From the NCBI GenBank assembly GCA_013388675.1, contig JACAEW010000169.1, positions 115-64,114 on the forward strand: a stretch of DNA of 64,000 nucleotides, read 5' to 3'. Numbering within the stretch: the stretch's first letter is position 1; each line of letters opens with the position of its first letter. The position numbers and the translations under genes were made by a program. The notes beneath the pieces are model-generated. The model worked only from the letters and a program-made list of their open reading frames with translations, was not told where the DNA came from and did not search any database. This document shows positions 16,462-54,925 of this stretch, piece after piece. The DNA comes from Syntrophaceae bacterium. Lineage in GTDB: Bacteria > Desulfobacterota > SM23-61.

Positions 16462-17118
16462 ATGATTGAAGAGCTAAGAAAGAGGATAGCCGGGGAGGAA
16501 TTTGACTACCAGACCCTTTTGGACGTTCTCAAGGAGTATGAGCGCCCCCGCGACAAGATCACCGCTCTGCTGCGGCAGGGAAATATCATTCGGGTGAAGA
16601 AGGGTATCTATGTCTTCGGTGAAAGGTACGCCCGAGGGCCTTTCTCCAGAGAGGTCCTGGCTAACATGCTCTTTGGGCCATCCTATATATCCCTCGATTA
16701 TGCCCTCCACTATCATGGCCTGATCCCGGAGCGCGTCGAGGCCATGACCTCAGCCACGTGCGGCCGCGGCCGGCGTTTTTCTACCCCCGTAGGCCTATTC
16801 CTTTACCGTAAGATTCCCATGGCCGCCTATTCAATCGGCATCGATCAAGTGGAACTCGAAGGGGGCCGTACGTTCTTAATCGCGACCCCCGAAAAGGCAT
16901 TGGCCGACAAGATTCATGATGACCGGGGCACGGCTGTTCGCAGTCAAGCGGAAATGAGGGAATACCTCTTAACTCATCTGCGAATCGATCCCGGAGGATT
17001 GGAAAGGCTGAATGCCAAGATGCTCATTCTGATCGCTGCCCGATACGGGTCCCGTAAGATCCGACTGCTGGGCAGTTTGATCGGCGGGCTTACTGGGCGG
17101 GAGGTAGGCCATGAATGA
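16462..17118 (+). CDS. Type IV toxin-antitoxin system AbiEi-family antitoxin / transcriptional regulator
   Basis: 218 aa. ITALLRQGNIIRVKKGIYVF...GPSYISLDYALHYHGLIPE is the AbiEi-type winged-helix pattern. Overlaps the downstream toxin gene by 8 nt. Confidence 0.8.
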   Translation: MIEELRKRIAGEEFDYQTLLDVLKEYERPRDKITALLRQGNIIRVKKGIYVFGERYARGPFSREVLANMLFGPSYISLDYALHYHGLIPERVEAMTSATCGRGRRFSTPVGLFLYRKIPMAAYSIGIDQVELEGGRTFLIATPEKALADKIHDDRGTAVRSQAEMREYLLTHLRIDPGGLERLNAKMLILIAARYGSRKIRLLGSLIGGLTGREVGHE

Positions 17119-17977
17119 CGCGATTGCCCGTATGCTTGACCGCCACCAGTGCAGAAGCGTCGGAGACTACGTGAGAGCCCTGCGGGAGATCCTGCAGGAA
17201 ATTGCCCTGCTTGGGCTTTGGCGAGGCAAGTTTTTTGAGAAGGCCGCCTTTTATGGCGGCACAGCTCTCCGGATCCTTTATGGGATGGACCGTTTTTCCG
17301 AAGACCTCGATTTTTCCCTGCTCCAACCCATGCCCGATTTCGATCTTTCGCGTTATGTCGGAGCTCTGGAACGGGAGATCCGTTCGTTCGGTTTCGAGGT
17401 TAGCGTGGAGAGGCGAAAGAAGAAGACGGAAAGTCCGGTCCAGTCGGCATTCCTCAAGGCCGACACCCTGAAGCATTTGCTGGTCATAGAGACTGCCGAA
17501 GAAATAGCCTGGCAGATTCCTCGTGGCCAGGTCATGAAAATCAAGGTCGAAGTGGATACCGACCCACCTCCGGGATTTGACACCGAAACCAAGTTTCTGA
17601 TGCATCCCATCCCGTTCTCGGTCAGAGCCTTTGTCCTCCCCGACCTTTTTGCCGGCAAAATGCACGCCGTCCTCTGCCGGCAGTGGAAGACACGGGGCAA
17701 GGGCCGTGACTGGTACGATCTGGTCTGGTATGCCGGGTACCATCCAAAGCTTCACCTCGAGTACCTGGAAAAAAGAATGCTCCAGAGTGGACACCTAAGG
17801 GAGGGTGAACACCTGACTCAGGATAAGTTCCTGGCGCTGATATCGAAGGCGATTGAGAAGCTCAACGTAGAACAAGTTAGGAGGGAGGTAGAACCTTTTG
17901 TAAAGAATCCCGAAACGCTGGAAGTCTGGTCGAAGGAGTTCTTCCTGGATGTGGCGAGACGGATCGTACTGCAATAG
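17111..17977 (+). CDS. Nucleotidyltransferase AbiEii/AbiGii-family toxin (DUF1814)
   Basis: FYGGTALRILYGMDRFSEDLDFSL nucleotidyltransferase motif, later KMHAVLCR and RDWYDL segments. Confidence 0.85.
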   Translation: MNDAIARMLDRHQCRSVGDYVRALREILQEIALLGLWRGKFFEKAAFYGGTALRILYGMDRFSEDLDFSLLQPMPDFDLSRYVGALEREIRSFGFEVSVERRKKKTESPVQSAFLKADTLKHLLVIETAEEIAWQIPRGQVMKIKVEVDTDPPPGFDTETKFLMHPIPFSVRAFVLPDLFAGKMHAVLCRQWKTRGKGRDWYDLVWYAGYHPKLHLEYLEKRMLQSGHLREGEHLTQDKFLALISKAIEKLNVEQVRREVEPFVKNPETLEVWSKEFFLDVARRIVLQ

Positions 17978-31286: not shown

Positions 31287-32159
31287 ATGATTGACCTGCA
31301 TATCCACACCAACGCCTCCTCCGACGGGCAGTATTCTGCGCGGGAGGTCTTCCAGATGGCCAGGCACAAAGGCCTGCAGGCCATCGCCTTCGCCGATCAC
31401 AATTCCCTGCGAAACGTGGAAGAGGGGATTCGCCTGGCCGAGGAATTCGGCATGGGATTCATCCCCTGCATGGAACTGAACACTCTTTTTCGGGGTATGG
31501 ACCTCCACCTTCTGGCCTACTTCCTGGATCCCGCTGATTCCATCCTCCAGGATTGGTTGGAAGAGATTCACCGGGAAAAAGTGCAGCAGGCGGGCAAGCG
31601 AATGGAGAAACTGAACGAGTTGGGTTTCTTCTTCACCACAGAGGATTTGCGGAAATTTTCTGAAGACCGGATTCCCACCGGTCGGTCCTATTTGCAGGCC
31701 ATCCTCAGCCGGGATGAAAACCGCAAGGACCCGCGCCTGCGCCCGTACATCGACGGAGACCGGTCCCGTTCTCCTTATGTGAATTTCTACCGGGACTACC
31801 TCCGGGGAGGGAAACCGGCCTTCGTCCCCATGGAGGATATCTCCACCCCCTCGGCCATCCGTAAGATTCGCCAGCTGGGGGCCATCCCCGTTCTCGCCCA
31901 TCCCTCGGATACGGGCGAAGACAACCTTCGGGCTCTCGTGGAACACGGATTGGAAGGCCTCGAAGCCTATTCTCCCTACCACACCCCTTCGGAGCAGGAG
32001 GCCTTCAGGGTTTTCGCCGAGCGTCACGGTCTCTTGGTGACCGCCGGGTCGGATTTCCACGGGGAAAAAATCAAGCCGGATATCGAGCTGGGGCAGGTTT
32101 CGGCCCATCCCCAAGATGTCCTTGAAAAGTTGAAAAAGAGAAGGAAGGATACCCGATGA
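31287..32159 (+). CDS. PHP-domain phosphoesterase (TrpH/YciV, RNase AM-like)
   Basis: MIDLHIHTNASSDG, AFADHNS, later HP and SDFHG metal-ligand motifs of the PHP fold. Confidence 0.8.
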   Translation: MIDLHIHTNASSDGQYSAREVFQMARHKGLQAIAFADHNSLRNVEEGIRLAEEFGMGFIPCMELNTLFRGMDLHLLAYFLDPADSILQDWLEEIHREKVQQAGKRMEKLNELGFFFTTEDLRKFSEDRIPTGRSYLQAILSRDENRKDPRLRPYIDGDRSRSPYVNFYRDYLRGGKPAFVPMEDISTPSAIRKIRQLGAIPVLAHPSDTGEDNLRALVEHGLEGLEAYSPYHTPSEQEAFRVFAERHGLLVTAGSDFHGEKIKPDIELGQVSAHPQDVLEKLKKRRKDTR

Positions 32160-32800
32160 AAGCAAACAAAGTCCGCGGGGTCGTTTTCGACCTGGACGGA
32201 ACCCTCATCGATTCTTATCAGGCCATTTACCTGGGATTCCACTATGTTTATACGACGATAGGGCTTCCCCCTCTATCCTACGAGGAGGTGGAAAGGGCCG
32301 TGGGCCTGGGATTGGGCCATACCTTTCGGGAACTCCTGGGGGAAGAAAGGGTCCCCCAGGCCCTGGCCCTTTTCCGCAAGAGATACGAAGAGGTTTTCCG
32401 CACCCATACCCGTTTGCTCCCCGATGCCCGCGAAGTCCTGCAAGGCCTCCAGGGCCGGGCGATTCAACTGGCCGTGGCTACCAATAAGCTCGGCCGGTTT
32501 TCCCGGGCGATTTTCGAGCACTTCGGCATGGAAAAGATGTTTGCCGTTATCGTAGGGGACGGGGATGTTTCTCGGAACAAACCCGATCCCGAAATGCTTT
32601 ACCTGGCCATGGACAAGATGGGAGTGGGAAAGGAGGAAACCATCTTTGTCGGCGATTCCGTAATTGACATCCAGACGGGGAAAAATGCGGGAATCCGGGT
32701 TTTCGCGGTTCCCACCGGCAATACCAGGCGGGACGATTTGGTCAAGGCCCAACCCACCGTGCTTATGAGTCGCCTTCTGGACCTCCTGACCTTGGTTTGA
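32156..32800 (+). CDS. HAD-superfamily hydrolase (phosphoglycolate phosphatase-like)
   Basis: FDLDGTLIDS (motif I), ATNK (motif II region), and VGDSVIDIQTGKNAG (motif III/IV). Start overlaps the PHP stop (ATGA). Confidence 0.8.
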   Translation: MKANKVRGVVFDLDGTLIDSYQAIYLGFHYVYTTIGLPPLSYEEVERAVGLGLGHTFRELLGEERVPQALALFRKRYEEVFRTHTRLLPDAREVLQGLQGRAIQLAVATNKLGRFSRAIFEHFGMEKMFAVIVGDGDVSRNKPDPEMLYLAMDKMGVGKEETIFVGDSVIDIQTGKNAGIRVFAVPTGNTRRDDLVKAQPTVLMSRLLDLLTLV

Positions 32801-32849: not shown

Positions 32850-32879
32850 TTGCACAACCTTCCCTTGCGGGAGTACAAT
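32850..32879 (+). promoter_or_regulatory. Sigma70-like promoter for the eRF1-like / RCK_C pair
   Basis: TTGCAC (32850-32855), 18-nt spacer, TACAAT (32874-32879). About 130 nt upstream of ATG 33010, which is itself preceded by AAGGAGG. Confidence 0.4.
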
Positions 32880-33009
32880 CGGGGACAGGAAAGCTCTTCA
32901 TAATCAGGGGGGATAAGCCAGCCGACCCAATTCCACCAAAGAAGGGGGGGAAAAGTCTCTCGGCATACAAGGGGGATACACTTCATTCTCTGAAAAGGAG
33001 GACAGCAGG

Positions 33010-34155
33010 ATGCCTCTCGATGAATTTGTTCAGAGCCTGGTGAAGGTTAATCCTGGAAAGAATTCCTTCCTTTCGACTTACCTGGATTTGCGCCCGGAAG
33101 GAAGGGGTAAAAAGCTTCATTCCATTTTTCTCAAGAACCGAATGTCCGAACTCGCCCAGATTTTTCCTGCTCATTCCCGTGAGCAGGCCCTCCTCGCCCG
33201 GGATATCAAGCGGGTTCAAAAGTACGTGGAAGAAAAGCTGGATCCCTCCTGGAAGGGGATTGCCCTTTTTGCCTGTGCCGCCGAAGATTTTTTCTTGCCG
33301 ATCCCTTTGCCCCTGCCCCCGGAAAACGAAATGGCCCTGTCCTCTCGGCCGCATCTTTTCTCGCTGATGGGCCAGGCGGATCTGTTCCGGCCCTATGCGA
33401 TTATCGCCGCCGATTCCCGCCAGGCCCGCCTTTTCTGGATTCAGGACGGTCGCTTGGCGAAACAAAGGTCCCTTGTTTGGGAAGAGGAGCACACCACCCG
33501 GTTCGGCCGGATGGGCCTCTCCCTGCAGAAATTCCAGCGCCACATCCAGGAACATACCCGGCAGCGAATGAAGGAGGCTGTCGAGAATCTCCTCAAATGG
33601 GCCGGCAGGGATAAAATGGAATACCTTTTTACCATCACCGAGGAGGGAATGGAGGGGGAGATGAAAAAGCATCTGCCCCTCTCCCTGAAAAAGAAGCAGG
33701 CATCCCTTTCCCGGGTGGATTCCCGCGACCCGGACCATAAAATCCTTTCTGCAGCCTTCGAGGCGATTCAGGCCCTCTCCCGCGAACGGGCTGAAAGCCT
33801 GGCCCGTCAACTTCTCGAGGAGGCCCAGCCCTTGGGAAAGGCCACCGCAGGCCCGGAACCGACCTTGAGCGCCCTGCAGAGTCATCAGGTAGAACGCCTG
33901 GTTTTAGACCGGCGTTTCCAAGCCGAAGGCTGGGAATGTAAGTCCTGCGGGTACCAGGGGACGGGAGGAGTGCCCAAGGCCTGCCCCCTGTGCCAGGGAG
34001 CCACTGCCCCGGCGGAACTGCGGGAGGCGGTGGTTTACCTGGGGCAAACCCAGGAGATCGACCTTGCTTTTACGGATAACTATCGCCCGCTGGTAAAGGC
34101 CGGGGGAATCGGCGCCATGCTGAAGTTCCATATTTCGGGAAAAAAGGGGCGATGA
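33010..34155 (+). CDS. Bacterial eRF1/Pelota-like (baeRF-type) protein with zinc-ribbon insertion
   Basis: RFGRMGLSLQKFQRH aligns by eye with the eRF1 loop HGRGGQSALRFARL (GGQ becomes MGL). The C-terminal GGIGAMLKF resembles the eRF1/Pelota ending GGIGxxLRY. GKATAGPEPTLSALQSHQVERLVLD resembles a domain-3 start. CKSCGYQ...CPLCQG forms an inserted knuckle pair. Confidence 0.6.
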   Translation: MPLDEFVQSLVKVNPGKNSFLSTYLDLRPEGRGKKLHSIFLKNRMSELAQIFPAHSREQALLARDIKRVQKYVEEKLDPSWKGIALFACAAEDFFLPIPLPLPPENEMALSSRPHLFSLMGQADLFRPYAIIAADSRQARLFWIQDGRLAKQRSLVWEEEHTTRFGRMGLSLQKFQRHIQEHTRQRMKEAVENLLKWAGRDKMEYLFTITEEGMEGEMKKHLPLSLKKKQASLSRVDSRDPDHKILSAAFEAIQALSRERAESLARQLLEEAQPLGKATAGPEPTLSALQSHQVERLVLDRRFQAEGWECKSCGYQGTGGVPKACPLCQGATAPAELREAVVYLGQTQEIDLAFTDNYRPLVKAGGIGAMLKFHISGKKGR

Positions 34156-34207: not shown

Positions 34208-34714
34208 ATGGCCTTTTGGGAACAGGTAAAGGGGAAGACCCAGGCGGTTCAAATTAAGTTGCGCATGCTTTTTTTGGAGAACCAAATCGACCAGGCCCTC
34301 CTCCGGCTGGGCAGCCGGACCTATGATCTGAATAAAAGCGGGGGAGCCTTCGGGGAGGATGAAGAGGTTCGTTCTTTTTTGCAGGGAATCTCCTCCAAGA
34401 GGCAGGAGTTGGCCCGGCTTAAGGAAGACTTTCAAAGAAGCTGGAGCGAAGAGTCCAAGGAGCTGAAAGCCCGCCTGGAGAAGGGGGACGGCGCGCTGGA
34501 ACAGGTGGAAATTTCTTTCCTGTCCCCGGCGGCGGGAAAAAAGGTCAAAGAGCTGGACCTTCCCAAGGAAGTTCTCCTGGGCCCGATCACGCGCGGAAAG
34601 GAGCTGATCATCCCCGACGGAGAAACGGAACTCCAGCCCATGGACCGAGTTACTCTTCTGGGAAAGAAAAAGGATGTGGAATCCACTGCCCGGCTCTTGA
34701 AAGGGCTTCCCTGA
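34208..34714 (+). CDS. Coiled-coil protein with C-terminal RCK_C (TrkA_C) domain
   Basis: The C-terminal LEQVEISFLSPAAGKKVKELDLPKEVLLGPITRGKELIIPDGETELQPMDRVTLLGKKKDV matches the TrkA_C pattern. The N-terminal half looks helical/coiled-coil. AGGAGG lies upstream, 52 nt after the eRF1-like gene. Confidence 0.6.
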   Translation: MAFWEQVKGKTQAVQIKLRMLFLENQIDQALLRLGSRTYDLNKSGGAFGEDEEVRSFLQGISSKRQELARLKEDFQRSWSEESKELKARLEKGDGALEQVEISFLSPAAGKKVKELDLPKEVLLGPITRGKELIIPDGETELQPMDRVTLLGKKKDVESTARLLKGLP

Positions 34715-41730: not shown

Positions 41731-42011
41731 TTTCTTATCCTCCATTTCCCCTTTTAAATACCAGCCCATTACACCCTACATTTTTTATGATGATTTTCTT
41801 TTCGGAATGATTCCGATTTCCCCATGAATCCCCCCAACCCTTCATTTTCATTCGGAAAAAGAGCCTTTTTTGAGGCCCTAAAACCGCCTATATTTGACAT
41901 ATCCCCGAAAACAGCTTTAAGATAGGGCGGCAATGGCCGAAGGAAGCTATTCTTGTTTCGCCATCCACCCCGTGGCTGGTGCCCGGAAACCCTTTAGTAA
42001 AGGAGGTACAT

Positions 42012-43268
42012 ATGCTCTATGACGCCTTTTTGACCGAAGAAGAAAGAGGCCTGCGGGACGAAGTTCGCAACTTTGTCCGCGACGAGGTACCGGCAGACCT
42101 CCTGCGCGCCATGGACCGCGACGAAACCAAATTCCCCTACGAGTTCATCGAGAAGCTGGCCCGCCAGGGGCTGCGGGGGCTGAGGTTTCCGAAAAAGTAC
42201 GGGGGCAGGGACCTTCCCTGGACCGCCGAGGTGGTGGCCGAAGAGGAAATCGGCGTCCTGGGAATGGCTTTGGGATGCGCCTTCGTGATGACCTCCATCG
42301 TAGGGGAGGCGCTGAATGTCTTCGGGACCGAAGATCAGAAGGAACGTTACCTTCGGCCGATGATCACCGGGACCAAGATCCCCGAGGAAGGCTTGACCGA
42401 GCCCCGGGGCGGGTCCGATTTTTTCGGGGCCACCACCACCGCCGTCCGGGATGGTGACAGCTTTATTCTGAACGGGCAGAAACGATTCGTAGTGGGAGCC
42501 GAAGCCGCCGATTATTTCGCCGTTTACTGCAACACCGACCCCAAGGCTCCTCCCCACCAGCGAATATCCATGTTCATCGTTGAAAAGGGTCCTGGGGTCG
42601 AGGTGGAACATGTTTATGGCCTGCTGGGATGCCGGGGTACCGGCGTAGGGAGACTCGTTTTCCGAAACTGCCGGGTTCCCAAAGATAATCTCATAGGCCA
42701 GCTGGGCTATGGTGGCTTGATCTTTGACCGGATGATGATCCCGGAGCGACTGACTTCGGCCGCGGCCTCCATCGGCGGGGGGCGCGCTGCCCTGGAGATC
42801 GCTATCCGGTACAGCGACCGGCGGGTGGCCTTCGGGCAAAAAATCCGAAAGTTCCAGGCGGTCAGCTTCATGATCGCCGACGCCATGACCCGTCTCGACG
42901 CCGCCCGGGGATTGACCTACGGGGCGGCCAAAACGGTGGACCGGGGAATGCCCCACCGGAGGTTGGTGAGCGAAGCCAAAAAATTCGCCACCGAAGCGAC
43001 CTGGTCGATCGTCAACATGGCCATGCAGGTTTTGGGAGGGATCGGCTATACCAACGTCTATCCCCTGGAAAGGTATTTGCGCGACTCGCGCCTGGGGATC
43101 ATCTGGACCGGAACCAGCCAGATCATGGACGCCCTCATCCAGCACGAAACCTTTGCCGAATGTCTTGGAGACCTGAGCGATCGGAGAAACGTCGAATTCG
43201 ATGCCATGGGCATGGACGCCGGGAAGGAAAAAGTCTATACCGACGAGGATATGTGGAGGAACTTTTGA
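42012..43268 (+). CDS. Acyl-CoA dehydrogenase family protein
   Basis: LTEPRGGSD, GQKRFV, and C-terminal LGGIGYTNVYPLERYLRDSR. Start ATG 42012 follows AGGAGG. Confidence 0.85.
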   Translation: MLYDAFLTEEERGLRDEVRNFVRDEVPADLLRAMDRDETKFPYEFIEKLARQGLRGLRFPKKYGGRDLPWTAEVVAEEEIGVLGMALGCAFVMTSIVGEALNVFGTEDQKERYLRPMITGTKIPEEGLTEPRGGSDFFGATTTAVRDGDSFILNGQKRFVVGAEAADYFAVYCNTDPKAPPHQRISMFIVEKGPGVEVEHVYGLLGCRGTGVGRLVFRNCRVPKDNLIGQLGYGGLIFDRMMIPERLTSAAASIGGGRAALEIAIRYSDRRVAFGQKIRKFQAVSFMIADAMTRLDAARGLTYGAAKTVDRGMPHRRLVSEAKKFATEATWSIVNMAMQVLGGIGYTNVYPLERYLRDSRLGIIWTGTSQIMDALIQHETFAECLGDLSDRRNVEFDAMGMDAGKEKVYTDEDMWRNF

Positions 43269-43365
43269 ATTCGGAATGCGGAATGCTGAATGCGGAATAA
43301 ATACCCGGACAGGAAGCGAAATCCTTTGTTTCTCTCATTCCGCATTCCCATTCCGAATTGCGCAT
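43267..43365. repeat. Inverted pair of heptamer tracts (GAATGCG / CGCATTC) forming a long hairpin
   Basis: Left arm: gaattcg gaatgcg gaatgct gaatgcg (43267-43294). Right arm: cattccg cattccc attccga att (43336-43362). The left arm overlaps the ACAD stop codon. Confidence 0.65.
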
Positions 43366-43372
43366 TTATAAA

Positions 43373-43567
43373 ATGGCTTACCAAATCACCGTAAAATGCA
43401 CCCACTGCGGGGAATGCCTTTCGGTCTGTCCCCTCGACGCCATCTCCGACGAGGAAGTCCGGCCCCGCATCGACCCAAACCTCTGCACTGATTGCGGCAC
43501 CTGTGCGGACATTTGTCCCGCGCGGGCCATCGAGGGCACTTCGGCACCCTGGCCACATCAGGCTTGA
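43373..43567 (+). CDS. 2x[4Fe-4S] ferredoxin
   Basis: CTHCGECLSVCP and CTDCGTCADICP motifs. 64 aa. Confidence 0.7.
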   Translation: MAYQITVKCTHCGECLSVCPLDAISDEEVRPRIDPNLCTDCGTCADICPARAIEGTSAPWPHQA

Positions 43568-43591
43568 CAATCTTTTCAGTCCTGCTATCAT
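43564..43591 (+). promoter_or_regulatory. Sigma70-like promoter upstream of moaD-like/aor
   Basis: TTGACA (43564-43569), 16-nt spacer, TATCAT (43586-43591). This would give a leader of about 160 nt before ATG 43761. Confidence 0.4.
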
Positions 43592-43760
43592 GGGTTTGAA
43601 TTTTTCCCGCACACGTCTTTGAATCCCTTCCTTTTTTGCCTCCCGGAGGGGATACCGAACGGGTTCTCCAAAAAGGATGCGATGCACGGCCTGGGGAGAT
43701 TCGAGTTGACCTTCTTCAGGTCTTTCATCGCCCGACCTAAAACATGGGCAAGGCCCGAAT

Positions 43761-44000
43761 ATGAAAATCGAATTGCGCCTCTATGCATCCCTGGGCCGAT
43801 ATTTGCCGGAAGAAAAAGATGGGAACTCGTGCGTCGTAGAAGTGGAACCTGGAACTACAATCCGTGACCTTTTCCTCAGGTTTCAAATTCCAGCGGAGGC
43901 GCGCAAGATCATTTTTTTGAACGGGATCCATGCTCAAGGGGATGAGGTTTTGAAGAACGGAGACCGGGTGGGAGCTTTTCCCCCGGTGGCCGGTGGCTAA
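43761..44000 (+). CDS. MoaD/ThiS-family ubiquitin-like sulfur-carrier protein
   Basis: 79 aa ending in VAGG, with a beta-grasp pattern (NGDRVGAFPPVAGG). Confidence 0.75.
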   Translation: MKIELRLYASLGRYLPEEKDGNSCVVEVEPGTTIRDLFLRFQIPAEARKIIFLNGIHAQGDEVLKNGDRVGAFPPVAGG

Positions 44001-44046
44001 AAATACACCTGCAGGGCAGTGATACATCCAGAAAGGAGGATCGGTC

Positions 44047-45780
44047 ATGAAGATTTTGAGAATCAACATGGGAGCAGCCGGCGGCCCCAAGGTCAGCGAG
44101 GAACCGATGGGCCAGTACGATGGTCTGGGGGGACGGGCTTTGACCTCCACGATTGTGGCCAAAGAGGTTCCTCCTCTCTGTCATCCTCTGGGGGAAGACA
44201 ACAAGCTGGTCATCGCCCCGGGGTTGCTAAGCGGGACTCCAGCGGCCATTTCCGGGCGGGTCTCGGTGGGATGCAAAAGCCCCCTTACCGGGGGAATCAA
44301 GGAGGCCAACTCTGGAGGGCAGCCGTCCCAGGTCTTGGCCATGCTGGGCTATGGGGCTATCGTCCTGGAGGGAAAGCCCAAGGACAACACGCTTTACAAA
44401 GTTTTTATTTCCAAGGATGGGGTCAAAGTGTCCCCGGACAACAGCCTCCGCATGCTGGGTAACTATGACCTCGTGGAGAAGATGAAGAAAGAGTATGGAG
44501 ATAAAATTGCCTGCATTTCCGTCGGCCAGGCCGGAGAGATGAAGATGAGCGCCGCGTCCGTCGCCTTCACCGACATGGAACTGCGGCCCACCCGCCATGC
44601 CGGCCGGGGAGGGGTCGGGGCGGTCATGGGGGCCAAGGGAGTCAAAGTCATCGTGGTCAGCGATGCCGGGGCGGAAAGACGCACCCCCAAGAACCCGGAG
44701 AAATTCCGCGAAGCCAATAAAAAATTCACCGAGGGCCTCAAAAAACACCCGGTAACCGGGGAAGGACTTCCGGCCTACGGGACCAACGTTCTCACCAACG
44801 TGATCAACGAAGCCGGCGCCTATCCCACGAAGAACTTCATGTGGGGACGCTTCGATACCTGCCAAAAGATCAGCGGGGAAACCCAGGCCCAGACCGAGAC
44901 TGCCCGCGGCGGGTTGGCCACCCACGGTTGCCACCGCGGGTGCGTGATTCAGTGTTCAGGCATCTTTGTCGATAAAGATGGGCATTACGTCACCAAACAG
45001 CCCGAGTATGAAACCGTATGGGCCCTGGGCGGAAACTGCTGCATCGATGACCTGGACGTGATTGCCCAGCTCGACCGGCTCTGCGACGATATCGGCCTGG
45101 ATACCATCGAAATGGGGGCCACGATCGGCGTAGCCATGGAAGCCGGCCTGGCCAAGTTCGGCGACGGGCAGGCGTCCATCAACCTTTTGAAAGAGGTCGG
45201 CAAAGGCACCCCCATCGGCCGCATCCTCGGAAACGGGGCGGCGGTCACCGGAAAAGTCCTGGGAGTGGAAAGGGTCCCGGTCGTGAAGGGGCAGGCTCTT
45301 CCCGCCTACGATCCCCGGGGTATCCAGGGGATTGGAGTGACGTATGCCACCAGCACCCAGGGTGCCGACCATACCGCCGGATACGCTGTAGCGACCAACA
45401 TTATGAAGGTCGGAGGATACGTGGACCCGCTGAAGCCGGAAGGCCAGGTGGAGCTCTCGCGGAACCTCCAGATCGCCACGGCGGCCATCGATTCCACCGG
45501 TATGTGTCTCTTCATCGCCTTCGCGGTCATGGATCAGCCGGAAACCTTCCAGGCCCTGATCGACCTTCTGAATGGCTTCTATGGTTGGAACTTGACCGCC
45601 GACGACGTCACCGCCTTGGGGAAGAAAATCCTCAAGACGGAAAGAGAATTCAACCTTCAGGCCGGTTTGACCGCCAAGCAGGACCGGCTGCCCGACTTTT
45701 TCAAGAAAGAAGCCTTATCCCCCCATAACTTAACCTTCAAGGTTAGGGACGAAGAGCTGGACCAGGTCTTTAACTGGTAA
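44047..45780 (+). CDS. aor: Aldehyde:ferredoxin oxidoreductase (tungstopterin AOR family)
   Basis: N-terminal AOR domain (GGRALTS, KSPLTGGIKEANSGG). [4Fe-4S] ligand region HGCHRGCVIQC. C-terminal AOR domains 2/3. Confidence 0.9.
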   Translation: MKILRINMGAAGGPKVSEEPMGQYDGLGGRALTSTIVAKEVPPLCHPLGEDNKLVIAPGLLSGTPAAISGRVSVGCKSPLTGGIKEANSGGQPSQVLAMLGYGAIVLEGKPKDNTLYKVFISKDGVKVSPDNSLRMLGNYDLVEKMKKEYGDKIACISVGQAGEMKMSAASVAFTDMELRPTRHAGRGGVGAVMGAKGVKVIVVSDAGAERRTPKNPEKFREANKKFTEGLKKHPVTGEGLPAYGTNVLTNVINEAGAYPTKNFMWGRFDTCQKISGETQAQTETARGGLATHGCHRGCVIQCSGIFVDKDGHYVTKQPEYETVWALGGNCCIDDLDVIAQLDRLCDDIGLDTIEMGATIGVAMEAGLAKFGDGQASINLLKEVGKGTPIGRILGNGAAVTGKVLGVERVPVVKGQALPAYDPRGIQGIGVTYATSTQGADHTAGYAVATNIMKVGGYVDPLKPEGQVELSRNLQIATAAIDSTGMCLFIAFAVMDQPETFQALIDLLNGFYGWNLTADDVTALGKKILKTEREFNLQAGLTAKQDRLPDFFKKEALSPHNLTFKVRDEELDQVFNW

Positions 45781-45792
45781 GCGTAACGGTTC

Positions 45793-45820
45793 GTAGGGGC
45801 GATTCGCAAATCGCCCCTAC
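45793..45820. repeat. REP-like GC palindrome
   Basis: gtaggggcgattcgcaaatcgcccctac, 13 nt after the aor stop. Confidence 0.7.
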
Positions 45821-45847
45821 CCCCTAAACCTGATCTTCCAAAGCCTC

Positions 45848-46465
45848 ATGGAACACCGTCCCCCATCTTTTATCTCCGTTGAATTTCATCTATCACCGGA
45901 CCAAATCCAGGCCTTTTTTCCACTGTTGCAAAAAGGGTTCAGGGTGGAAGCCCGGATCGGGGTAAGCGTCAAGGACTTCCTCTCGGAACATATCGGGTTG
46001 AGCCCCGAATACGTCCGGGATCGGGTGAAAACAATCTTTTTGGATGGAAAATCCATCGACGACCTCGATGGAACTAGGATCCACGATGGTTCGATGCTGG
46101 CCCTCTCCGCCGCTATGCCGGGACTAGCCGGAGCGGTACTCCGCAGGGGGAGTTTCTTTGCCGGGTTGAGGAGCCGGGTGGAGGAACGAAACCAAAGGCC
46201 GTCAGGCGAGCGGGAAGAGGGATTCATCCATCTCAAGCTTTTTAATCTTCTCCTCCCCGAGATCGGCCCGCTTCTTTTGCAGGAGGGGATTTTGATTTCC
46301 AAGGATGAATTTCGGGAATTCTGGGCCCATTTCTCAGAAGAAAGCAGGCCGGGTTGGGAAAACGCCCGAGTGAAAGGGAAAGAATGCGAGATTCAATCTT
46401 TGGCCCCCCTCCTCCGGGAGGACCCTTCCCCCTGGATACGGCTGAAGGTCCAGGAAAAAGCATAA
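45848..46465 (+). CDS. Hypothetical protein (possible beta-grasp-like segment)
   Basis: ORF only. IFLDGKSIDDLDGTRIHDGSMLALSAAMPG is reminiscent of MoaD/ThiS-type strands but lacks the GG end. Confidence 0.45.
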   Translation: MEHRPPSFISVEFHLSPDQIQAFFPLLQKGFRVEARIGVSVKDFLSEHIGLSPEYVRDRVKTIFLDGKSIDDLDGTRIHDGSMLALSAAMPGLAGAVLRRGSFFAGLRSRVEERNQRPSGEREEGFIHLKLFNLLLPEIGPLLLQEGILISKDEFREFWAHFSEESRPGWENARVKGKECEIQSLAPLLREDPSPWIRLKVQEKA

Positions 46466-47232
46466 GGTCAAGGAATCGCGACAGCCTTGGACATAAGAAA
46501 AACCCTCTTTTTCTCTTGATCCTACTCCTTTTTTCCCTCCCTCTCCTTTTCGCCGCCCGGCCCCTTATCACGGAAGGAGTGGATATCGTCGAAAAGGGGA
46601 CCTTCGAGGTGGAAGTCGGTTTTGACTATTTTCGGGAAGCCAATCGGGATAGATACTACATCCCCTTAATCCTGTTGAAATACGGCCCCATCGATAAATT
46701 GGAGGTGGGGGGTAGCATTGGATACCTTTGGAACGACCTTCGTGATGGAGAACGCCAGGATGGGTGGACGGATTTTTTCCCCTATCTAAAATACCGGTTA
46801 TGGGACGAAGGCGATTCCCATCCGGCCTTAGCCATCAAGGCCCTGGCAAAATTGCCCACCCAGACTTGGCGGGACCCCACTGAATCGCGTCGGACGGACT
46901 ATGCGCTGGGGACCATTTTCGATAAGTCTTTCGGCAAGGCTATCCTTTATTTGGACCTTTTTTATTTTTTTATCGGGGACCCGGGGAAAACCGACGTTCT
47001 CAGCGGCGGCATAGCGGGGGAATATGAATTCCTGAAGGGATGGGGTGCGGTGGGCGAAATTCGATATTTTAGGAACTTCAACACGGACCGCGGGGACGAC
47101 CCCCTGTTCCTCAATTTCGGCCTGAAAAAGGATGTGGGTTGGGCGGTTCTCGACGCGGCCATGAATGTCGGCCTGAACAGCGCCGCCCCGGACTACGGAT
47201 TCACCATCGGGGCTACTATTCCGTTCAAGTAG
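46354..47232 (+). CDS. Outer-membrane beta-barrel protein (MetA-pathway/phenol-degradation-like transporter family); start uncertain
   Basis: Signal-peptide-like HKKNPLFLLILLLFSLPLLFA-ARP, then alternating beta-strand pattern, with a C-terminal aromatic residue (ATIPFK). The only ATG/GTG/TTG upstream of the signal peptide forces a 112-nt overlap with the previous ORF. Confidence 0.55.
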   Translation: MGKRPSERERMRDSIFGPPPPGGPFPLDTAEGPGKSIRSRNRDSLGHKKNPLFLLILLLFSLPLLFAARPLITEGVDIVEKGTFEVEVGFDYFREANRDRYYIPLILLKYGPIDKLEVGGSIGYLWNDLRDGERQDGWTDFFPYLKYRLWDEGDSHPALAIKALAKLPTQTWRDPTESRRTDYALGTIFDKSFGKAILYLDLFYFFIGDPGKTDVLSGGIAGEYEFLKGWGAVGEIRYFRNFNTDRGDDPLFLNFGLKKDVGWAVLDAAMNVGLNSAAPDYGFTIGATIPFK

Positions 47233-47355
47233 GGGCGATCCCCCGGGCCGCATGAGCGTCGCGCCTATGGCCCGCCGAATCATGAGGAGGCCCGATGACC
47301 GAAGGGAAATGGATTTCCTACCAAGACCAAACAGGAACCGAAAAGGAGGCTTGCT

Positions 47356-48996
47356 TTGAAAAGCACGACCCTAGCCGGCGAAATCTTGAAACAGGAAGGA
47401 ACGGAGTGTCTCTTCTGCTTTCCAGTCAATCCTTTGATCGATGCCGCCGCAGAGGCTGGAATCCGGCCGATCATGCCCTGCACGGAGCGAACCGTGATCG
47501 GTATGGCCGACGGTTACACCCGGGTGAATAACGGAAGACGGATCGGTGTCTGCGCGGTTCAGATGGGCCCGGGAATCGAAAACACCTTCGGCGGAATCGC
47601 TCAGGCTTTTTCCGATTCCACCCCCATCCTTTGCCTCCCGGGAGGGCCGCCGCAGAATCGTTCCTCCGTGCCCCCCAATTTCGACCCGGTTTTGAATTAT
47701 CGGCACGTGATCAAATGGGTGGACAGGATCAATAAAGCGGACCGAATCCCGGAGTTTTTCCGTCGGGCCTTTACCTACTTAAGGACCGGCCGGCCAGGAC
47801 CGGTGATGCTCGAATTCCCGATGGATGTGGCCGGGGTCCAGGTTGATGACTCGGTTTTTTCCTACAAACCGGTAAAGGGGGGTAAGGCTATGGCAGACCC
47901 CGAATCCGTGGCGGCCTCCGTGAAAGCGATCGTCGCCGCCCAAAAGCCCCTCCTCCATGCGGGAAGCGGTGTCCTCTATGCCGAGGCGTGGGAGGAGCTC
48001 AGGGAGTTTGCTGAGTTGCTCCAAATTCCGGTTATGACCACCCTTCCCGGAAAGAGCTGCTTTCCGGAAAATCATCCCCTCTCCCTGGGTTGCGGCGGAT
48101 TGACTGGACCCCGCCCCGTGGCCCGTTATCTCCTTGAATGCGACTCCATCCTTGGGGTGGGCAGCAGTTTTTCCATTTCTTCCTTCGCCGCCCCCCTTCC
48201 CCGGGGGAAAAAGGCGGTCCAGTTGACAGTGGACGAACGGGACCTGAACAAGGATTACGCAGTCGATTTACTGATGATGGGGGATGCCAAGCTCACCTTA
48301 AGGCGGATGATCGAGGAAGCCAGGCGCCTGTTGGGACCGGAAGGACGACGGGGAGATGACCGTGCCGTAAAAGCCATCAAAGCCATGAAGGACGAATGGA
48401 TGGACGAATGGATGCCAAAACTCACTTCCGAGGAAGTTCCCATCAACCCTTACCGGGTCATTTGGGACCTTCAGCAGGCAGTGAACCCGGAGAATACCAT
48501 CGTTACTCACGATGCCGGAAATCCCCGCGATATGACCGCCCCCTTCTGGAAAGCCCTGGTTCCCAACAGCTATATCGGTTGGGGGAAATCCACTCACCTG
48601 GGATACAGCATTCCCCTGGCCTTGGGGGCCAAGGTTGCCAAGCCGGAAAAAACGGTGATCAATATCATGGGGGACGGAGCCTTCGGCATGAGCGGTATGG
48701 AAATCGCGACCGCGGCCCGCAATCGGATCGGGATTTTGACAGTCATTTTGAATAACTCCTGCCTGGGCGGGTACGACAAACACATTCCCGTTGCCAGCCG
48801 GCTTTATCGGACAAGGTTCATCTCGGGGGACTACCGCAAGGTTGCCGAGGGGTTGGGAGCTTATGCCGAAAGGGTGGAGCAGCCCGGAGATATCATCCCC
48901 GCGGTACACAGGGCTCTAACGGTAACCGCGGAGGGGCGCCCGGCTCTGCTCGAATTCATCACCAAGGAGGAGCTGCAGCTATCAAGATATTGGTGA
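47356..48996 (+). CDS. Thiamine-diphosphate-dependent enzyme (acetolactate synthase large subunit-like)
   Basis: TPP motif IMGDGAFGMSGMEIATAARNRIGILTVILNN. N-terminal PYR domain. TTG start 6 nt after AAGGAGG. Confidence 0.8.
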   Translation: MKSTTLAGEILKQEGTECLFCFPVNPLIDAAAEAGIRPIMPCTERTVIGMADGYTRVNNGRRIGVCAVQMGPGIENTFGGIAQAFSDSTPILCLPGGPPQNRSSVPPNFDPVLNYRHVIKWVDRINKADRIPEFFRRAFTYLRTGRPGPVMLEFPMDVAGVQVDDSVFSYKPVKGGKAMADPESVAASVKAIVAAQKPLLHAGSGVLYAEAWEELREFAELLQIPVMTTLPGKSCFPENHPLSLGCGGLTGPRPVARYLLECDSILGVGSSFSISSFAAPLPRGKKAVQLTVDERDLNKDYAVDLLMMGDAKLTLRRMIEEARRLLGPEGRRGDDRAVKAIKAMKDEWMDEWMPKLTSEEVPINPYRVIWDLQQAVNPENTIVTHDAGNPRDMTAPFWKALVPNSYIGWGKSTHLGYSIPLALGAKVAKPEKTVINIMGDGAFGMSGMEIATAARNRIGILTVILNNSCLGGYDKHIPVASRLYRTRFISGDYRKVAEGLGAYAERVEQPGDIIPAVHRALTVTAEGRPALLEFITKEELQLSRYW

Positions 48997-50665: not shown

Positions 50666-51379
50666 CTATTTCCGGCAGTTCTGGCAGGTCTTCAGGAAAT
50701 CGAGGGAGACGCCGGTGGTCTTGGCCATCCACTCGAGTTGGTACTCCGGCGCGAAGTAGTTGCCGCATACCGGGCAAGCCGCCAGCTTGAAATCCCGCCC
50801 CCAGATGCTGCGCACTCCATCCTTTTCGGTCATGGCGATGGCCCCGGTGGGGCAAATGTAGTGGCAGGCTCCGCAGCCGATGCAAACCCCGGTGGGTTCG
50901 GCGTAGGGGGTTCCCACCTTCTTGATCGATCCCCGCATGGAAAGGCCGATGGCGCTGACCCCCACCGCCTCTTCGCAGGCCTTGACACACTGCCCGCAGA
51001 GGATGCATTTCCAGTTCCCTTCGTCCGGCTTGAAACGGAACTTTTCCACCCCCATCTTGCGGGCCATGCCGGCGATGACCTCGGAGTCGGGACAGCGCGC
51101 CCAAAGGAGCTCCAGGACCGTCTTGCGAACCAGCCGGACCTTCTCCGTCTGGGTCTGCACCTGCAGCCCTTCCTCCACCGGGTAGAGGCAGGAAGTGACC
51201 AGGCGCACCCGGGTCCCCTTTTTTACCTCCACCATGCAGAGGCGGCATCTTCCCTCCGGGCCCAGGGATTCATTGTGGCAAAGGGTGGGAATGTCGATCC
51301 CGTTGTCCCGGGCCACCTGCAGGACCGTGGCCCCCGGCTTCGCCTTGCAGGCCATTCCGTCGATCGTGATATTTACCAT
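50666..51379 (-). CDS. NuoG/HydA-N-terminal-like Fe-S subunit ([2Fe-2S] plus [4Fe-4S] clusters, no catalytic domain)
   Basis: ITIDG...CHNESLGPEGRCRLCMVEV (2Fe-2S), CILCGQCVKACE and CIGCGACHYICP (4Fe-4S), and C-terminal CPVCG...CQNC. Only 237 aa. Confidence 0.8.
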   Translation of the reverse strand: MVNITIDGMACKAKPGATVLQVARDNGIDIPTLCHNESLGPEGRCRLCMVEVKKGTRVRLVTSCLYPVEEGLQVQTQTEKVRLVRKTVLELLWARCPDSEVIAGMARKMGVEKFRFKPDEGNWKCILCGQCVKACEEAVGVSAIGLSMRGSIKKVGTPYAEPTGVCIGCGACHYICPTGAIAMTEKDGVRSIWGRDFKLAACPVCGNYFAPEYQLEWMAKTTGVSLDFLKTCQNCRK

Positions 51380-51487
51380 GGATTTATGTATCTCCTGGGT
51401 GATTTTCTTGGCGTTATGAGTCAGAAGTAACTAGCTTCTTTGGGTTGCGATCACGCCGCACTGCGTTCTCTGCGCCTCCGGGGTGAA

Positions 51488-53813: not shown

Positions 53814-53842
53814 TTTATTCTCCGGGTGATTTTGAGTCTGAC

Positions 53843-53861
53843 GGGCGCGCGCCGCGCGCCC
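53843..53861. repeat. GC palindrome (REP-like variant)
   Basis: gggcgcgcg-c-cgcgcgccc followed by ctac. Lies between the nuoE-like and porB genes. Confidence 0.5.
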
Positions 53862-53928
53862 CTACGATCCAGGGTCCAATGGTCTTATTCTTCGCTTCCG
53901 AACGGGGGACCCGCCGGCTCGCCCCGAC

Positions 53929-54896: not shown

Positions 54897-54925
54897 TTTT
54901 AACTCCCCAAAACGGGAATTCAAAA

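What the first reader, a model, noticed from the sequence alone, without database searches (positions are those of the whole stretch)
33010..34155. Bacterial eRF1/Pelota-like protein with GGQ replaced by MGL and a zinc ribbon inserted in domain 3
Seen in sequence. (i) Residues 164-178, RFGRMGLSLQKFQRH, line up by eye with the eRF1 central-domain catalytic loop HGRGGQSALRFARL, but GGQ is MGL (codons at 33511-33519). (ii) The C-terminus GGIGAMLKF resembles the eRF1/Pelota domain-3 ending GGIGxxLR(Y/F). (iii) GKATAGPEPTLSALQSHQVERLVLD resembles the start of domain 3. (iv) CKSCGYQ...CPLCQG is a two-knuckle zinc ribbon inserted there. Established knowledge, from memory: the archaeo-eukaryotic release-factor fold occurs sporadically in bacteria (the baeRF families from the comparative genomics of Burroughs and Aravind). 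These proteins are essentially uncharacterised experimentally and are proposed to act in ribosome rescue or translation-targeting conflict. Inference: loss of GGQ argues for a Pelota/Dom34-like ribosome- or tRNA-binding role rather than peptidyl-tRNA hydrolysis. The gene sits almost exactly at the window centre and has its own promoter-like element and a strong SD.
Basis: partly seen in the sequence, partly recalled or inferred. Interest (0 to 1): 0.7.

Follow-up and report, generated by a model that had tools for sequence, protein, structure and literature searches.

The report
Balon-like ribosome factor with zinc ribbon
This gene encodes a bacterial cousin of the archaeal/eukaryotic translation release factor that has lost its catalytic motif and most likely parks in the A site of idle ribosomes, like the hibernation factor Balon described in 2024; it is a lineage-restricted new member of a known family, not a new kind of system.

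Summary
ORF 33010-34155(+) encodes a 381-aa, three-domain aeRF1-fold protein. HMM alignment confirms all four by-eye motif matches. It passes Pfam baeRF_family10 (46 bits, cutoff 27). Its best PDB sequence and fold matches are ribosome-bound Msmeg1130/Balon (profile E=2.6e-10; TM 0.75-0.79), then archaeal aRF1, Rv2629 and Psychrobacter Balon. Pelota/Dom34 match much more weakly. Msmeg1130 is itself a family-10 member.

(1) The family is no longer uncharacterised, because Balon-type hibernation factors were described in 2024. (2) The zinc ribbon is the ancestral aRF1 ribbon retained. Its four Cys align with the M. mazei aRF1 ribbon, and 71% of the nearest relatives have it. It occupies the site of Balon's EF-Tu-binding hairpin. 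(3) The derived feature is loss of the family's GGWSQ motif, which became MG[W/L]S-x. Even so, this loop is the most conserved, fixed-length segment of the protein.

The subfamily is one tight clade of uncultured Thermodesulfobacteriota. It is vertically inherited in a housekeeping syntenic block with no HPF neighbour.

Most likely function: a non-hydrolytic, A-site-binding hibernation factor. Fold homology is near certain; the function is inferred (about 0.6). Verdict: new member of a known kind, modest interest.

The parts
32995..33001 (+). Shine-Dalgarno AAGGAGG, 8 nt upstream of the ATG
   Evidence: Read directly from the sequence.
33010..34155 (+). CDS, 381 aa: baeRF family 10 / Balon-like aeRF1-fold protein
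   Evidence: ORF. PF18854 46.2 bits against cutoff 27.1. About 100 homologues all starting MPLDE.... AF2 model pLDDT 88.3, pTM 0.83. Foldseek top hits are Msmeg1130/Balon.
33010..33348 (+). N-terminal domain (res 1-113; approximate boundary), no NIKS motif
   Evidence: No 'NIKS' string. Aligns with Msmeg1130 residues 22-120. AF2 secondary structure.
33091..33114 (+). Conserved basic loop RP(D/E)xxGKK (res 28-35), flexible in the model; candidate decoding-centre contact (inferred)
   Evidence: G33, K34, K35 and P29 are nearly invariant. The 31-40 block has mean pLDDT 64.
33349..33795 (+). Central (RNase H-fold, eRF1 domain-2-like) domain, res 114-262
   Evidence: PF18854 match covers res 114-253. 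eRF1 alignment from res 162 onward.
33499..33543 (+). Former catalytic loop RFGRMGLSLQKFQRH (res 164-178). MGL (33511-33519) takes the place of eRF1 GGQ, and G-L-S-L takes the place of the family-10 G-W-S-Q
   Evidence: HMM alignment to eRF1 GRGGQS. Relatives carry GGWSQxRYQRH. Across the 97 subfamily sequences, position 168 is never Gly, position 172 is never Gln, and R164, S171, R177 and H182 are invariant (R167 95/97, H178 96/97). Residues 163-171 form the most conserved 9-mer of the protein. Loop length is fixed in 93/95 sequences.
33523..33603 (+). Basic helix following the loop (res 172-198; FQRHxQEHxKQRxKE)
   Evidence: AF2 helix H172-198. R177, H178, H182, K188 and E189 are invariant or nearly so. 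Burroughs & Aravind relate the conserved positive charges of this helix to large-subunit rRNA binding.
33796..34134 (+). C-terminal (Pelota/eRF1 domain-3-like) domain, res 263-375, ending GGIGAMLKF (34102-34128)
   Evidence: Profile alignments to eRF1, aRF1 and Msmeg1130 C-domains.
33925..34002 (+). Cys4 zinc ribbon (res 306-331): GWECKSCGYQGTGGVPKACPLC. Cys codons at 33937-39, 33946-48, 33982-84 and 33991-93
   Evidence: The four Cys are conserved in 96-97/97 sequences. They align with the M. mazei aRF1 ribbon CSVCG...CPKCG, 3ir9, E=1.1e-9. Weak rubredoxin-like Pfam and PDB hits. Msmeg1130 has a Cys-less hairpin at the same site.
32851..32879 (+). Sigma-70-like hexamer pair TGCACA-17-TACAAT (not above chance)
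   Evidence: One site found against 1.0 +/- 0.9 expected in shuffles.
32156..32800 (+). Upstream HAD-family hydrolase gene, immediately upstream of the baeRF gene in all 11 subfamily loci that extend upstream (syntenic context; functional link not shown)
   Evidence: Pfam HAD_2 E=2e-45. Synteny table.
34208..34714 (+). Downstream 168-aa coiled-coil + TrkA_C (RCK_C) protein, 52 nt after the stop codon; an optional neighbour
   Evidence: Pfam TrkA_C E=1.6e-15. Present in L001, L003 and L005-L008; absent from L002, L009-L011, L013 and L014.

Best explanation
The gene encodes a catalytically inactive aeRF1-fold protein of Pfam baeRF family 10, the family that contains the mycobacterial Balon homologue Msmeg1130. 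It most likely acts as a Balon-type ribosome hibernation or parking factor.

Proposed mechanism, inferred by homology:
- Under stress or starvation it enters the ribosomal A site without reading mRNA, because there is no NIKS motif.
- The N domain contacts the decoding centre, possibly through the conserved flexible RPxxxGKK loop.
- The central domain places its invariant RFGRMG(W/L)S loop and the basic FQRHxQEHxKQR helix at the entrance of the peptidyl-transferase centre. It does not hydrolyse peptidyl-tRNA, because the Gly-Gly and the Gln are gone.
- The C domain faces the factor-binding site. There the retained Cys4 zinc ribbon occupies the position of the beta-hairpin through which Balon holds EF-Tu(GDP).

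Shown here: the fold, family membership, loss of the motif, homology of the ribbon, and the conservation pattern. Inferred: ribosome binding, the hibernation role, and the EF-Tu contact.
For: Family and sequence:
- Pfam PF18854 baeRF_family10 scores 46.2 bits against a cutoff of 27.1.
- The only NCBIfam hits of note are the MSMEG_1130-family and Rv2629-family ribosome hibernation factor models.
- The family profile's best PDB hit is Balon (MSMEG_1130) 8v9j_z, full length, E=2.6e-10.
- Msmeg1130 itself scores 124.7 bits on PF18854.

Fold:
- The confident AF2 model (pLDDT 88, pTM 0.83) superposes as a whole chain on ribosome-bound Msmeg1130 (TM 0.75-0.79).
- It also matches Rv2629 (0.69) and P. 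urativorans Balon (0.63-0.66).
- eRF1 gives only about 0.5 and Pelota 0.23-0.39.

The three structural hallmarks listed for Balon homologues (PMC10901736 supplement):
- No NIKS: met.
- No GGQ: met.
- An insertion in the C domain: met.

Conservation:
- The loop is the most conserved segment and has a fixed length, so it is under selection for a specific, non-catalytic contact.

Genomic context in a relative:
- The distant family-10 relative P0101 lies next to a divergently transcribed S30AE(HPF)+CSD chimera.
- This matches published HPF-baeRF and HPF-Balon adjacency.
Against: - Homology to the characterised proteins is remote: 17-18% identity by Foldseek and BLASTP E=2e-4 over the N-terminal third only.
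- The NCBIfam scores (49 and 40 bits) are far below the equivalog cutoffs of 480 and 320. P. urativorans Balon is not detected by sequence at all.
- In this subfamily the gene has no HPF or stress-gene neighbour. It sits in a vertically inherited block, PHP-HAD-baeRF-(TrkA_C)-lipoprotein-Trx-RadA.
- No HPF was found in the 64-kb window.
- The EF-Tu-binding hairpin is replaced by a structured Cys4 ribbon, so the EF-Tu contact may not be conserved.
- Balon's loop is poorly conserved, whereas this one is hyper-conserved, which may signal a different contact or activity.
- No experimental data exist for any member of the subfamily.
Confidence: 0.6

Rival explanations
1. It is a Pelota/Dom34-like, non-catalytic ribosome-rescue factor. 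It would recognise stalled or vacant ribosomes in the A site and, together with a GTPase or ATPase, promote subunit dissociation and recycling rather than long-term storage.
For: The inactive aeRF1 fold and A-site-shaped architecture are the same. Burroughs & Aravind proposed exactly this alternative for Gln-less baeRF proteins. The lack of HPF or stress neighbours in this subfamily does not favour hibernation specifically. The constitutive-looking housekeeping context (RadA, thioredoxin, CoA and cobalamin genes) would suit a surveillance function.
Against: Structural similarity to Pelota/Dom34 is much weaker than to Balon or aRF1 (TMq 0.23-0.39 against 0.75-0.78). No dedicated GTPase (Hbs1/aEF1a-like) or ABCE1-like partner is encoded nearby. 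The only experimentally characterised members of the same Pfam family are hibernation factors.
Confidence: 0.2
2. It is an active release factor or peptidyl-tRNA hydrolase (or a Vms1-like tRNA nuclease) that frees nascent chains from stalled ribosomes using the conserved loop with altered chemistry.
For: Burroughs & Aravind single out family 10 as a baeRF family with a conserved Gln and possible hydrolase activity. About half of the nearest relatives do carry GGWSQ. The loop here is the most conserved part of the protein, has a fixed length and contains invariant Arg, Ser and His residues.
Against: Both catalytic determinants are lost in all 97 subfamily sequences: position 168 is never Gly and position 172 is never Gln. 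In the eRF1 register, Gln is replaced by Leu or Trp. The Vms1-family (acVLRF1) Pfam hit is sub-threshold at 17 bits against 27.1. No RtcB, nucleotidyltransferase or other RNA-repair partner is adjacent.
Confidence: 0.06
3. It is a component of a biological-conflict system (anti-phage or counter-toxin) that shuts down or rescues ribosomes during attack.
For: Burroughs & Aravind propose conflict-driven origins for baeRF-1 pathways. The gene evolves faster than its neighbours, for example 77% against 80-95% in L005 and 65% against 75-93% in L001.
Against: No PADLOC hit for the protein or its neighbours. Inheritance is strictly vertical in a conserved housekeeping block across 12 loci, with no mobile-element or defence-island features. 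It is a single gene with no linked effector.
Confidence: 0.04

Closest known systems
Msmeg1130 (MSMEG_1130) and Rv2629, mycobacterial Balon homologues (PDB 8v9j/8v9l/8v9k; Helena-Bueno et al. 2024, PMC10901736)
   Same: Same Pfam family, PF18854. Best sequence-profile hit (E=2.6e-10, full length) and best fold match (TM 0.75-0.79). Three-domain aeRF1 architecture with no NIKS, no GGQ and an insertion at the same site of the C domain.
   Different: Only 17-22% identity, far below the NCBIfam equivalog cutoffs. The C-domain insert is an intact Cys4 zinc ribbon rather than a Cys-less hairpin or loop. The central loop is a hyper-conserved RFGRMG(W/L)S rather than a degenerate one. The genomic context is neither hypoxia/stress nor HPF.
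Balon of Psychrobacter urativorans (PDB 8rd8/8rdv/8rdw)
   Same: Overall fold and domain arrangement (Foldseek E about 1e-15, TM 0.63-0.69). A non-catalytic aeRF1 homologue.
   Different: Not detectable by sequence profile; 10-12% identity. Its HP motif, lasso loop and bL27 trap cannot be identified here. Its beta-hairpin is replaced here by a zinc ribbon.
Archaeal aRF1 (for example M. mazei 3ir9, 4af1)
   Same: The C domain is the best sequence match to the ribbon-bearing C-domain profile (E=1.1e-9), with all four ribbon Cys aligned. 4af1 is the third-best fold hit. The GR-x-G-x-S...F-x-R loop scaffold and the GGIGxxLRY ending are shared.
   Different: GGQ and NIKS are absent, so it cannot be a stop-codon-dependent release factor. 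The bacterial host has its own RF1/RF2 system (established knowledge).
GGWSQ-type baeRF family-10 proteins (nearest outgroups such as P0102, and L015/L016 from Acidimicrobiia and Vicinamibacterales)
   Same: Same Pfam family with higher scores (75-106 bits), the same length and domains, and the same downstream RYQRH helix. 71% also carry the zinc ribbon.
   Different: They keep the Gly-Gly and the Gln (GGWSQ, a Vms1-like GxxQ register). This subfamily has M/L-G-(W/L)-S-x. It forms a separate tight clade: 653 bits against 301 or less.
Pelota/Dom34
   Same: An inactive member of the aeRF1 superfamily that binds the A site. Shares the central and C-terminal domain folds (Foldseek E about 1e-7).
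   Different: A much weaker global match (TMq 0.23-0.39). In classical systems it is delivered by a dedicated GTPase, and no such partner is encoded nearby.

Membership tests
aeRF1 superfamily (eRF1/aRF1/Pelota fold) | Three-domain architecture: N domain, RNase-H-fold central domain, Pelota/L7Ae-like C domain | tested here: met
   AF2 model pLDDT 88. 46 PDB hits at E<=1e-4, all of them Balon, aRF1, eRF1, Pelota or Dom34. Profile hits to eRF1 and aRF1.
Pfam PF18854 baeRF_family10 | Score above the curated gathering threshold | tested here: met
   46.2 bits against 27.1, E=7.6e-12, residues 114-253 covering the whole 143-position model.
Pfam PF18854 baeRF_family10 (as described by Burroughs & Aravind 2019) | Well-conserved Gln in the catalytic loop | tested here: not met
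   72 of 147 nearest relatives have GGx[S/A/N]Q. None of the 97 subfamily sequences has Gln at position 172 or at the eRF1-Gln position 170.
Balon-type ribosome hibernation factors (Helena-Bueno 2024) | Absence of the NIKS stop-codon-recognition motif | tested here: met
   No NIKS in the sequence. The tip between helices H34-49 and H57-75 reads (L/F)P(A/P)(H/R)S.
Balon-type ribosome hibernation factors (Helena-Bueno 2024) | Extended decoding-centre-binding loop on the N domain (the HP motif in Balon) | tested here: inconclusive
   The paper gives no residue numbers in the text available here. A conserved flexible RPxxxGKK loop exists. At the site where Msmeg1130 has IHPL, this protein has LFSL. 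Equivalence could not be established without coordinates.
Balon-type ribosome hibernation factors (Helena-Bueno 2024) | Absence of GGQ in the central domain | tested here: met
   GGQ is replaced by MG(L/W).
Balon-type ribosome hibernation factors (Helena-Bueno 2024) | Characteristic insertion in the C-terminal domain at the EF-Tu-binding site | tested here: met
   An insertion lies at the aligned site of the Msmeg1130 hairpin. Here it is a Cys4 ribbon. EF-Tu binding itself was not tested.
Balon-type ribosome hibernation factors (Helena-Bueno 2024) | Binds the ribosomal A site and inhibits translation during stress | not testable with these tools
   Requires biochemistry or cryo-EM.
Balon-type ribosome hibernation factors (Helena-Bueno 2024) | Typical location in stress-response operons or next to HPF/RaiA | tested here: not met
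   12 subfamily loci show PHP-HAD-baeRF-(TrkA_C)-lipoprotein-Trx-RadA. No HPF in the window. Only the distant relative P0101 neighbours an S30AE+CSD gene.
NCBIfam NF052288 / NF052289 (MSMEG_1130 and Rv2629 equivalogs) | Score above the equivalog cutoff | tested here: not met
   48.7 bits against 480, and 40 bits against 320.
Classical class-I release factor aRF1/eRF1 | GGQ catalytic motif and NIKS/YxCxxxF codon-recognition motifs | tested here: not met
   Both are absent.
Classical class-I release factor aRF1/eRF1 | Zinc ribbon (or its mini-domain derivative) inserted in the C domain | tested here: met
   The four Cys align with the aRF1 ribbon of 3ir9. Described as standard for classical aeRF-1 in PMC6514570.
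Pelota/Dom34 | Global structural correspondence, including the Pelota-type N domain | tested here: not met
   Foldseek ranks Pelota and Dom34 at position 28 or lower, with TMq 0.23-0.39 against 0.75-0.78 for Balon. No Pelota Pfam hit.
Vms1/VLRF-1 clade | GxxQ / GGxSQ catalytic motif and a family-model score above cutoff | tested here: not met
   acVLRF1 PF18859 scores 17 bits against 27.1. The Gln is absent.
Rubrerythrin (name given by JGI to several homologues) | Diiron four-helix-bundle domain plus a C-terminal rubredoxin-like domain | tested here: not met
   Only the approximately 25-residue Cys4 knuckles match (RUBY_RBDX 17 bits against 26.5; rubrerythrin PDB E=0.007 over residues 301-337). 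The rest of the protein has the aeRF1 fold.

The most novel reading that the evidence does not exclude
The subfamily may represent a mechanistically distinct class of Balon-like factors in strictly anaerobic Thermodesulfobacteriota. Its Gln-less loop is invariant and of fixed length (RFGRMG[W/L]S...FQRH). That loop could make a specific new contact at the peptidyl-transferase centre or with the P-site tRNA CCA end, or could even carry a non-canonical activity. Its intact rubredoxin-like Cys4 centre sits where Balon binds EF-Tu. That centre could make A-site occupancy or EF-Tu recruitment dependent on metal or redox state, which would couple ribosome parking to oxidative or metal stress.
Probability: 0.12. 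Interest if true: 0.6.

Novelty: new member of a known kind. Interest (0 to 1): 0.3.

Why it matters
Balon-type factors were recognised only in 2024, and only three proteins have been studied. All three have degenerate loops and Cys-less C-domain hairpins.

This clade shows that the same Pfam family also contains members that combine the ancestral archaeal zinc ribbon with a Gln-less but hyper-conserved central loop. It is a natural test case for three questions:
- What does the 'ex-catalytic' loop do in non-hydrolytic aeRF1 homologues?
- Does EF-Tu recruitment require the hairpin form of the insert?
- Are the GGWSQ-bearing relatives hydrolases or hibernation factors?

It also corrects the database names 'rubrerythrin' and 'peptide chain release factor subunit 1' that are attached to these proteins. 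It does not open a new category of system.

Tried and rejected
- HPF/RaiA in the window: tblastn with the S30AE+CSD protein of L004 gave only chance hits. Pfam scans of 29 further window proteins found no translation or hibernation gene.
- Defence-system membership: no PADLOC hits.
- RNA leader, riboswitch or tRNA near the gene: no Rfam gathering-level hits and no tRNAs in the 64 kb.
- Own promoter or terminator: counts are at the chance level, and no terminator lies between the gene and the downstream TrkA_C gene.
- Neighbourhoods of the nearest outgroups (P0102, P0106, P0112): the contigs are too short to be informative. L015 and L016 have no HPF neighbour.
- Locating Balon's HP motif, lasso loop and bL27 trap in this protein: the paper text and supplement available here give no residue numbers (one search failed on a short search term). 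PDB coordinates cannot be superposed with these tools.
- TrkA_C protein as an obligate partner: rejected, because it is absent from 6 of the 12 subfamily loci that extend downstream (L012 ends within the gene).
- 'Rubrerythrin' annotation: rejected.
- The 300-aa antisense ORF 32983-33885(-): treated as a shadow ORF, because the + strand frame is the one conserved in about 100 homologues.
Full report
**1. The observation**

The window contains an ATG-initiated ORF at 33010-34155 on the + strand, encoding 381 aa. A canonical Shine-Dalgarno sequence, AAGGAGG (32995-33001), lies 8 nt upstream. Residues 164-178 are RFGRMGLSLQKFQRH. M168-G169-L170 are encoded at 33511-33519, exactly as reported.

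The gene is real. About 100 full-length homologues (48-99% identity, nearly all 375-386 aa, all starting MPLDE-like) exist in public metagenomes and MAGs. A 300-aa antisense ORF overlapping it is a shadow ORF.

One sigma-70-like site (32851-32879) was found where 1.0 +/- 0.9 is expected by chance.

**2. What it is**

Sequence evidence:
- Pfam places the central domain in baeRF_family10 (PF18854): 46.2 bits against a cutoff of 27.1, E=7.6e-12.
- NCBIfam gives only far-sub-threshold hits, and both are to ribosome hibernation factor families: MSMEG_1130 (48.7 bits, cutoff 480) and Rv2629 (40 bits, cutoff 320).
- A profile of the family (alignment A1) finds Balon (MSMEG_1130, 8v9j_z) as the best PDB sequence, over the full length, at E=2.6e-10. 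eRF1 chains follow at about 1e-4 and Rv2629 at 2e-3.

- GRmglS pairs with GRGGQS.
- The start of domain 3 pairs with [14 protein letters not shown].
- GGIaallkY pairs with GGIGAMLRY.

Fold evidence (confident AF2 model, pLDDT 88.3, pTM 0.83; matches):

| PDB match | TM-score |
|---|---|
| Msmeg1130, ribosome-bound, whole chain | 0.75-0.79 |
| Rv2629 | 0.69 |
| P. urativorans Balon | 0.63-0.66 |
| aRF1/eRF1 | about 0.5 |
| Pelota/Dom34 | 0.23-0.39 |

I rebuilt Msmeg1130 residues 22-375 from the HMMER alignment. It is itself a strong PF18854 member (124.7 bits). So the window protein shares a curated family with a protein seen by cryo-EM in the ribosomal A site (PMC10901736).

**3. The zinc ribbon is ancestral, not new**

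- Burroughs & Aravind (PMC6514570) describe a ZnR inserted in the Pelota/C-terminal domain as the standard architecture of classical aeRF-1. Many baeRF families carry a two-strand, presumably degenerate, version at the same site.
- A profile of ribbon-bearing C domains (A2) hits the M. mazei aRF1 C domain best (3ir9, E=1.1e-9). All four Cys align to aRF1's CSVCG...CPKCG.
- At the same columns Msmeg1130 has the Cys-less GTVGADGSLYADGEIAPHSH.
- The Balon paper identifies this C-domain insertion as the EF-Tu(GDP)-binding beta-hairpin.
- Among the 147 full-length nearest 50%-identity representatives from an exhaustive search of 1.84 billion proteins, 104 (71%) carry CxxC...CxxC.
- Within the window's subfamily the four Cys are present in 96-97 of 97 sequences.
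- The weak rubredoxin and rubrerythrin hits explain the JGI name 'rubrerythrin', which is a misannotation.

**4. The derived feature is the loop**

The nearest relatives typically carry GGWSQxR(Y/F)QRH. 72 of 147 have GGx[S/A/N]Q. [quoted passage not shown]

State of the loop in the 97 subfamily sequences:

| Position | Residue(s) |
|---|---|
| 168 | M, L, I or V; never G |
| 169 | G |
| 170 | L (49) or W (48) |
| 171 | S (97/97) |
| 172 | L, T, F or S; never Q |

The Gln is therefore missing whichever register is used, eRF1 GGQ or family GxxQ.

Contrary to the general rule that Gln-less baeRF loops are poorly conserved and variable in length, residues 163-171 (TRFGRMGLS) are the most conserved 9-mer of the whole protein. 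The loop length is fixed in 93 of 95 sequences, against 19-58 residues in the wider clade. R164, S171, R177 and H182 are invariant, and R167 and H178 nearly so. So the loop is under strong selection for something other than canonical Gln-dependent hydrolysis.

**5. Distribution and context**

- The subfamily collapses into a single 50%-identity representative (653 bits). The next relatives score 301 bits or less.
- Every genome hit is an uncultured Thermodesulfobacteriota, 'Deltaproteobacteria' or Syntrophaceae MAG. The closest (DASPRR010000228) is 77% identical.
- In 12 loci the gene lies in the same block: (NfeD-Band7-MFS)-PHP-HAD-baeRF-[TrkA_C]-lipoprotein-Zn_ribbon_8-thioredoxin-...-RadA.
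- It is consistently one of the fastest-evolving genes of that block, and the TrkA_C gene is present in only about half of the loci.
- This is vertical synteny, not a functional operon signature.
- There is no HPF/RaiA in the window, no defence-system signal and no RNA element.
- Only a distant family-10 relative (P0101, Desulfohalobiaceae, 24% identity) sits beside a chimeric S30AE(HPF)+CSD gene. That echoes the published HPF-baeRF and HPF-Balon adjacency.

**6. Mechanism**

The best-supported explanation is a Balon-type, non-hydrolytic A-site factor that parks or hibernates ribosomes. The reasoning:
- It shares a family and a whole-chain fold with ribosome-bound Msmeg1130.
- It meets the three structural hallmarks given for Balon homologues: no NIKS, no GGQ, and a C-domain insertion.
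- The basic helix after the loop is conserved, as in other baeRF proteins predicted to contact LSU rRNA.

Ribosome binding, timing (stress) and any EF-Tu contact through the ribbon are inferred, not shown. I put this at about 0.6.

Rivals:
- A Pelota-like rescue or splitting role (about 0.2). It is not excluded, but Pelota similarity is weaker and no partner NTPase is linked.
- A residual or non-canonical hydrolase or nuclease (about 0.06). It is suggested only by the hyper-conserved loop and is contradicted by the loss of Gly and Gln.
- A conflict system (about 0.04). It is contradicted by the vertical housekeeping context and the absence of PADLOC hits.

**7. Comparison and novelty**

The protein works like Msmeg1130/Balon, by inference. 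It is a member of Pfam baeRF family 10, which was tested. It is not an equivalog of MSMEG_1130 or Rv2629, and it is not a classical release factor, Pelota, Vms1 or rubrerythrin; all of these were tested and not met.

Relative to the characterised Balons it differs in two ways: it keeps the archaeal Cys4 ribbon, and it has a rigidly conserved Gln-less loop. Relative to most of its own family it differs in having lost GGWSQ.

These are motif-level variations within a known kind, so I rate it a new member of a known kind with modest interest (0.3).

Noticed in passing
window 16462-17977 (+): An AbiEii-type nucleotidyltransferase toxin gene (17111-17977, Pfam AbiEii E=2.8e-30) is preceded by an overlapping 218-aa ORF (16462-17118) with no Pfam hit. 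This is probably a type IV toxin-antitoxin (AbiEi/AbiEii-like) pair embedded among housekeeping genes.
   Followed up: partly
L015 7116-7547 and L016 2877-3365: In two distant GGWSQ-type family-10 loci from different phyla (Acidimicrobiia, Vicinamibacterales), a small ORF starts at the stop codon of the baeRF gene (ATGA overlap). The two ORFs share a conserved N-terminus, MSRQNxVNPGxYTQRGRLxQDDxAREL (48% identity over 82 aa, E=4e-20), and have no Pfam hit. This may be a translationally coupled partner of that branch. It is absent from the window.
   Followed up: partly
L004 5577-6209 (-), next to P0101 at 7001-8209: A chimeric HPF (Ribosomal_S30AE) + cold-shock-domain protein and a DUF2267 protein are divergently transcribed from a distant family-10 relative in a Desulfohalobiaceae MAG. 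This matches a recent report that chimeric HPF genes lie next to Balon genes.
   Followed up: partly
window 34208-34714 (+): A 168-aa protein with an N-terminal coiled coil and a C-terminal TrkA_C/RCK_C ligand-binding domain lies 52 nt downstream of the baeRF gene, with its own SD and no intervening terminator. It is present in only about half of the syntenic loci.
   Followed up: partly
window 33010-34155 compared with neighbours, across L001-L014: The baeRF gene evolves faster than almost all genes of its syntenic block. In L005 it is 77% identical against 80-95% for the neighbours, and in L001 65% against 75-93%, even though its central loop is nearly invariant.
   Followed up: partly
homologues P0001, P0012, P0017, P0026 and others: Public annotation of this subfamily is inconsistent: 'rubrerythrin', 'peptide chain release factor subunit 1' or 'hypothetical protein'. 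The rubrerythrin name comes only from the Cys4 knuckles.
   Followed up: yes
nearest 147 family-10 representatives: Loss of the GGxSQ glutamine and retention of the Cys4 ribbon are associated. The ribbon is present in 65/75 Gln-less representatives against 39/72 Gln-bearing ones (odds ratio 5.5, Fisher p=2e-5). This is not corrected for phylogeny.
   Followed up: partly
window 50666-56236 (-) and 41979-48996 (+): There is a cluster of anaerobic redox genes: a 2Fe-2S/4Fe-4S protein, a NuoF-like flavoprotein and 2-oxoacid:ferredoxin oxidoreductase subunits. Acyl-CoA dehydrogenase, aldehyde:ferredoxin oxidoreductase and a TPP enzyme lie nearby. This is consistent with a strictly anaerobic Thermodesulfobacteriota host.
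   Followed up: no
window 32983-33885 (-): A 300-aa antisense ORF overlaps most of the baeRF gene. It is probably a shadow ORF produced by GC-rich codon usage.
   Followed up: partly
window 1-64000: No tRNA genes and no Rfam family reach the gathering threshold anywhere in the 64 kb.
   Followed up: yes
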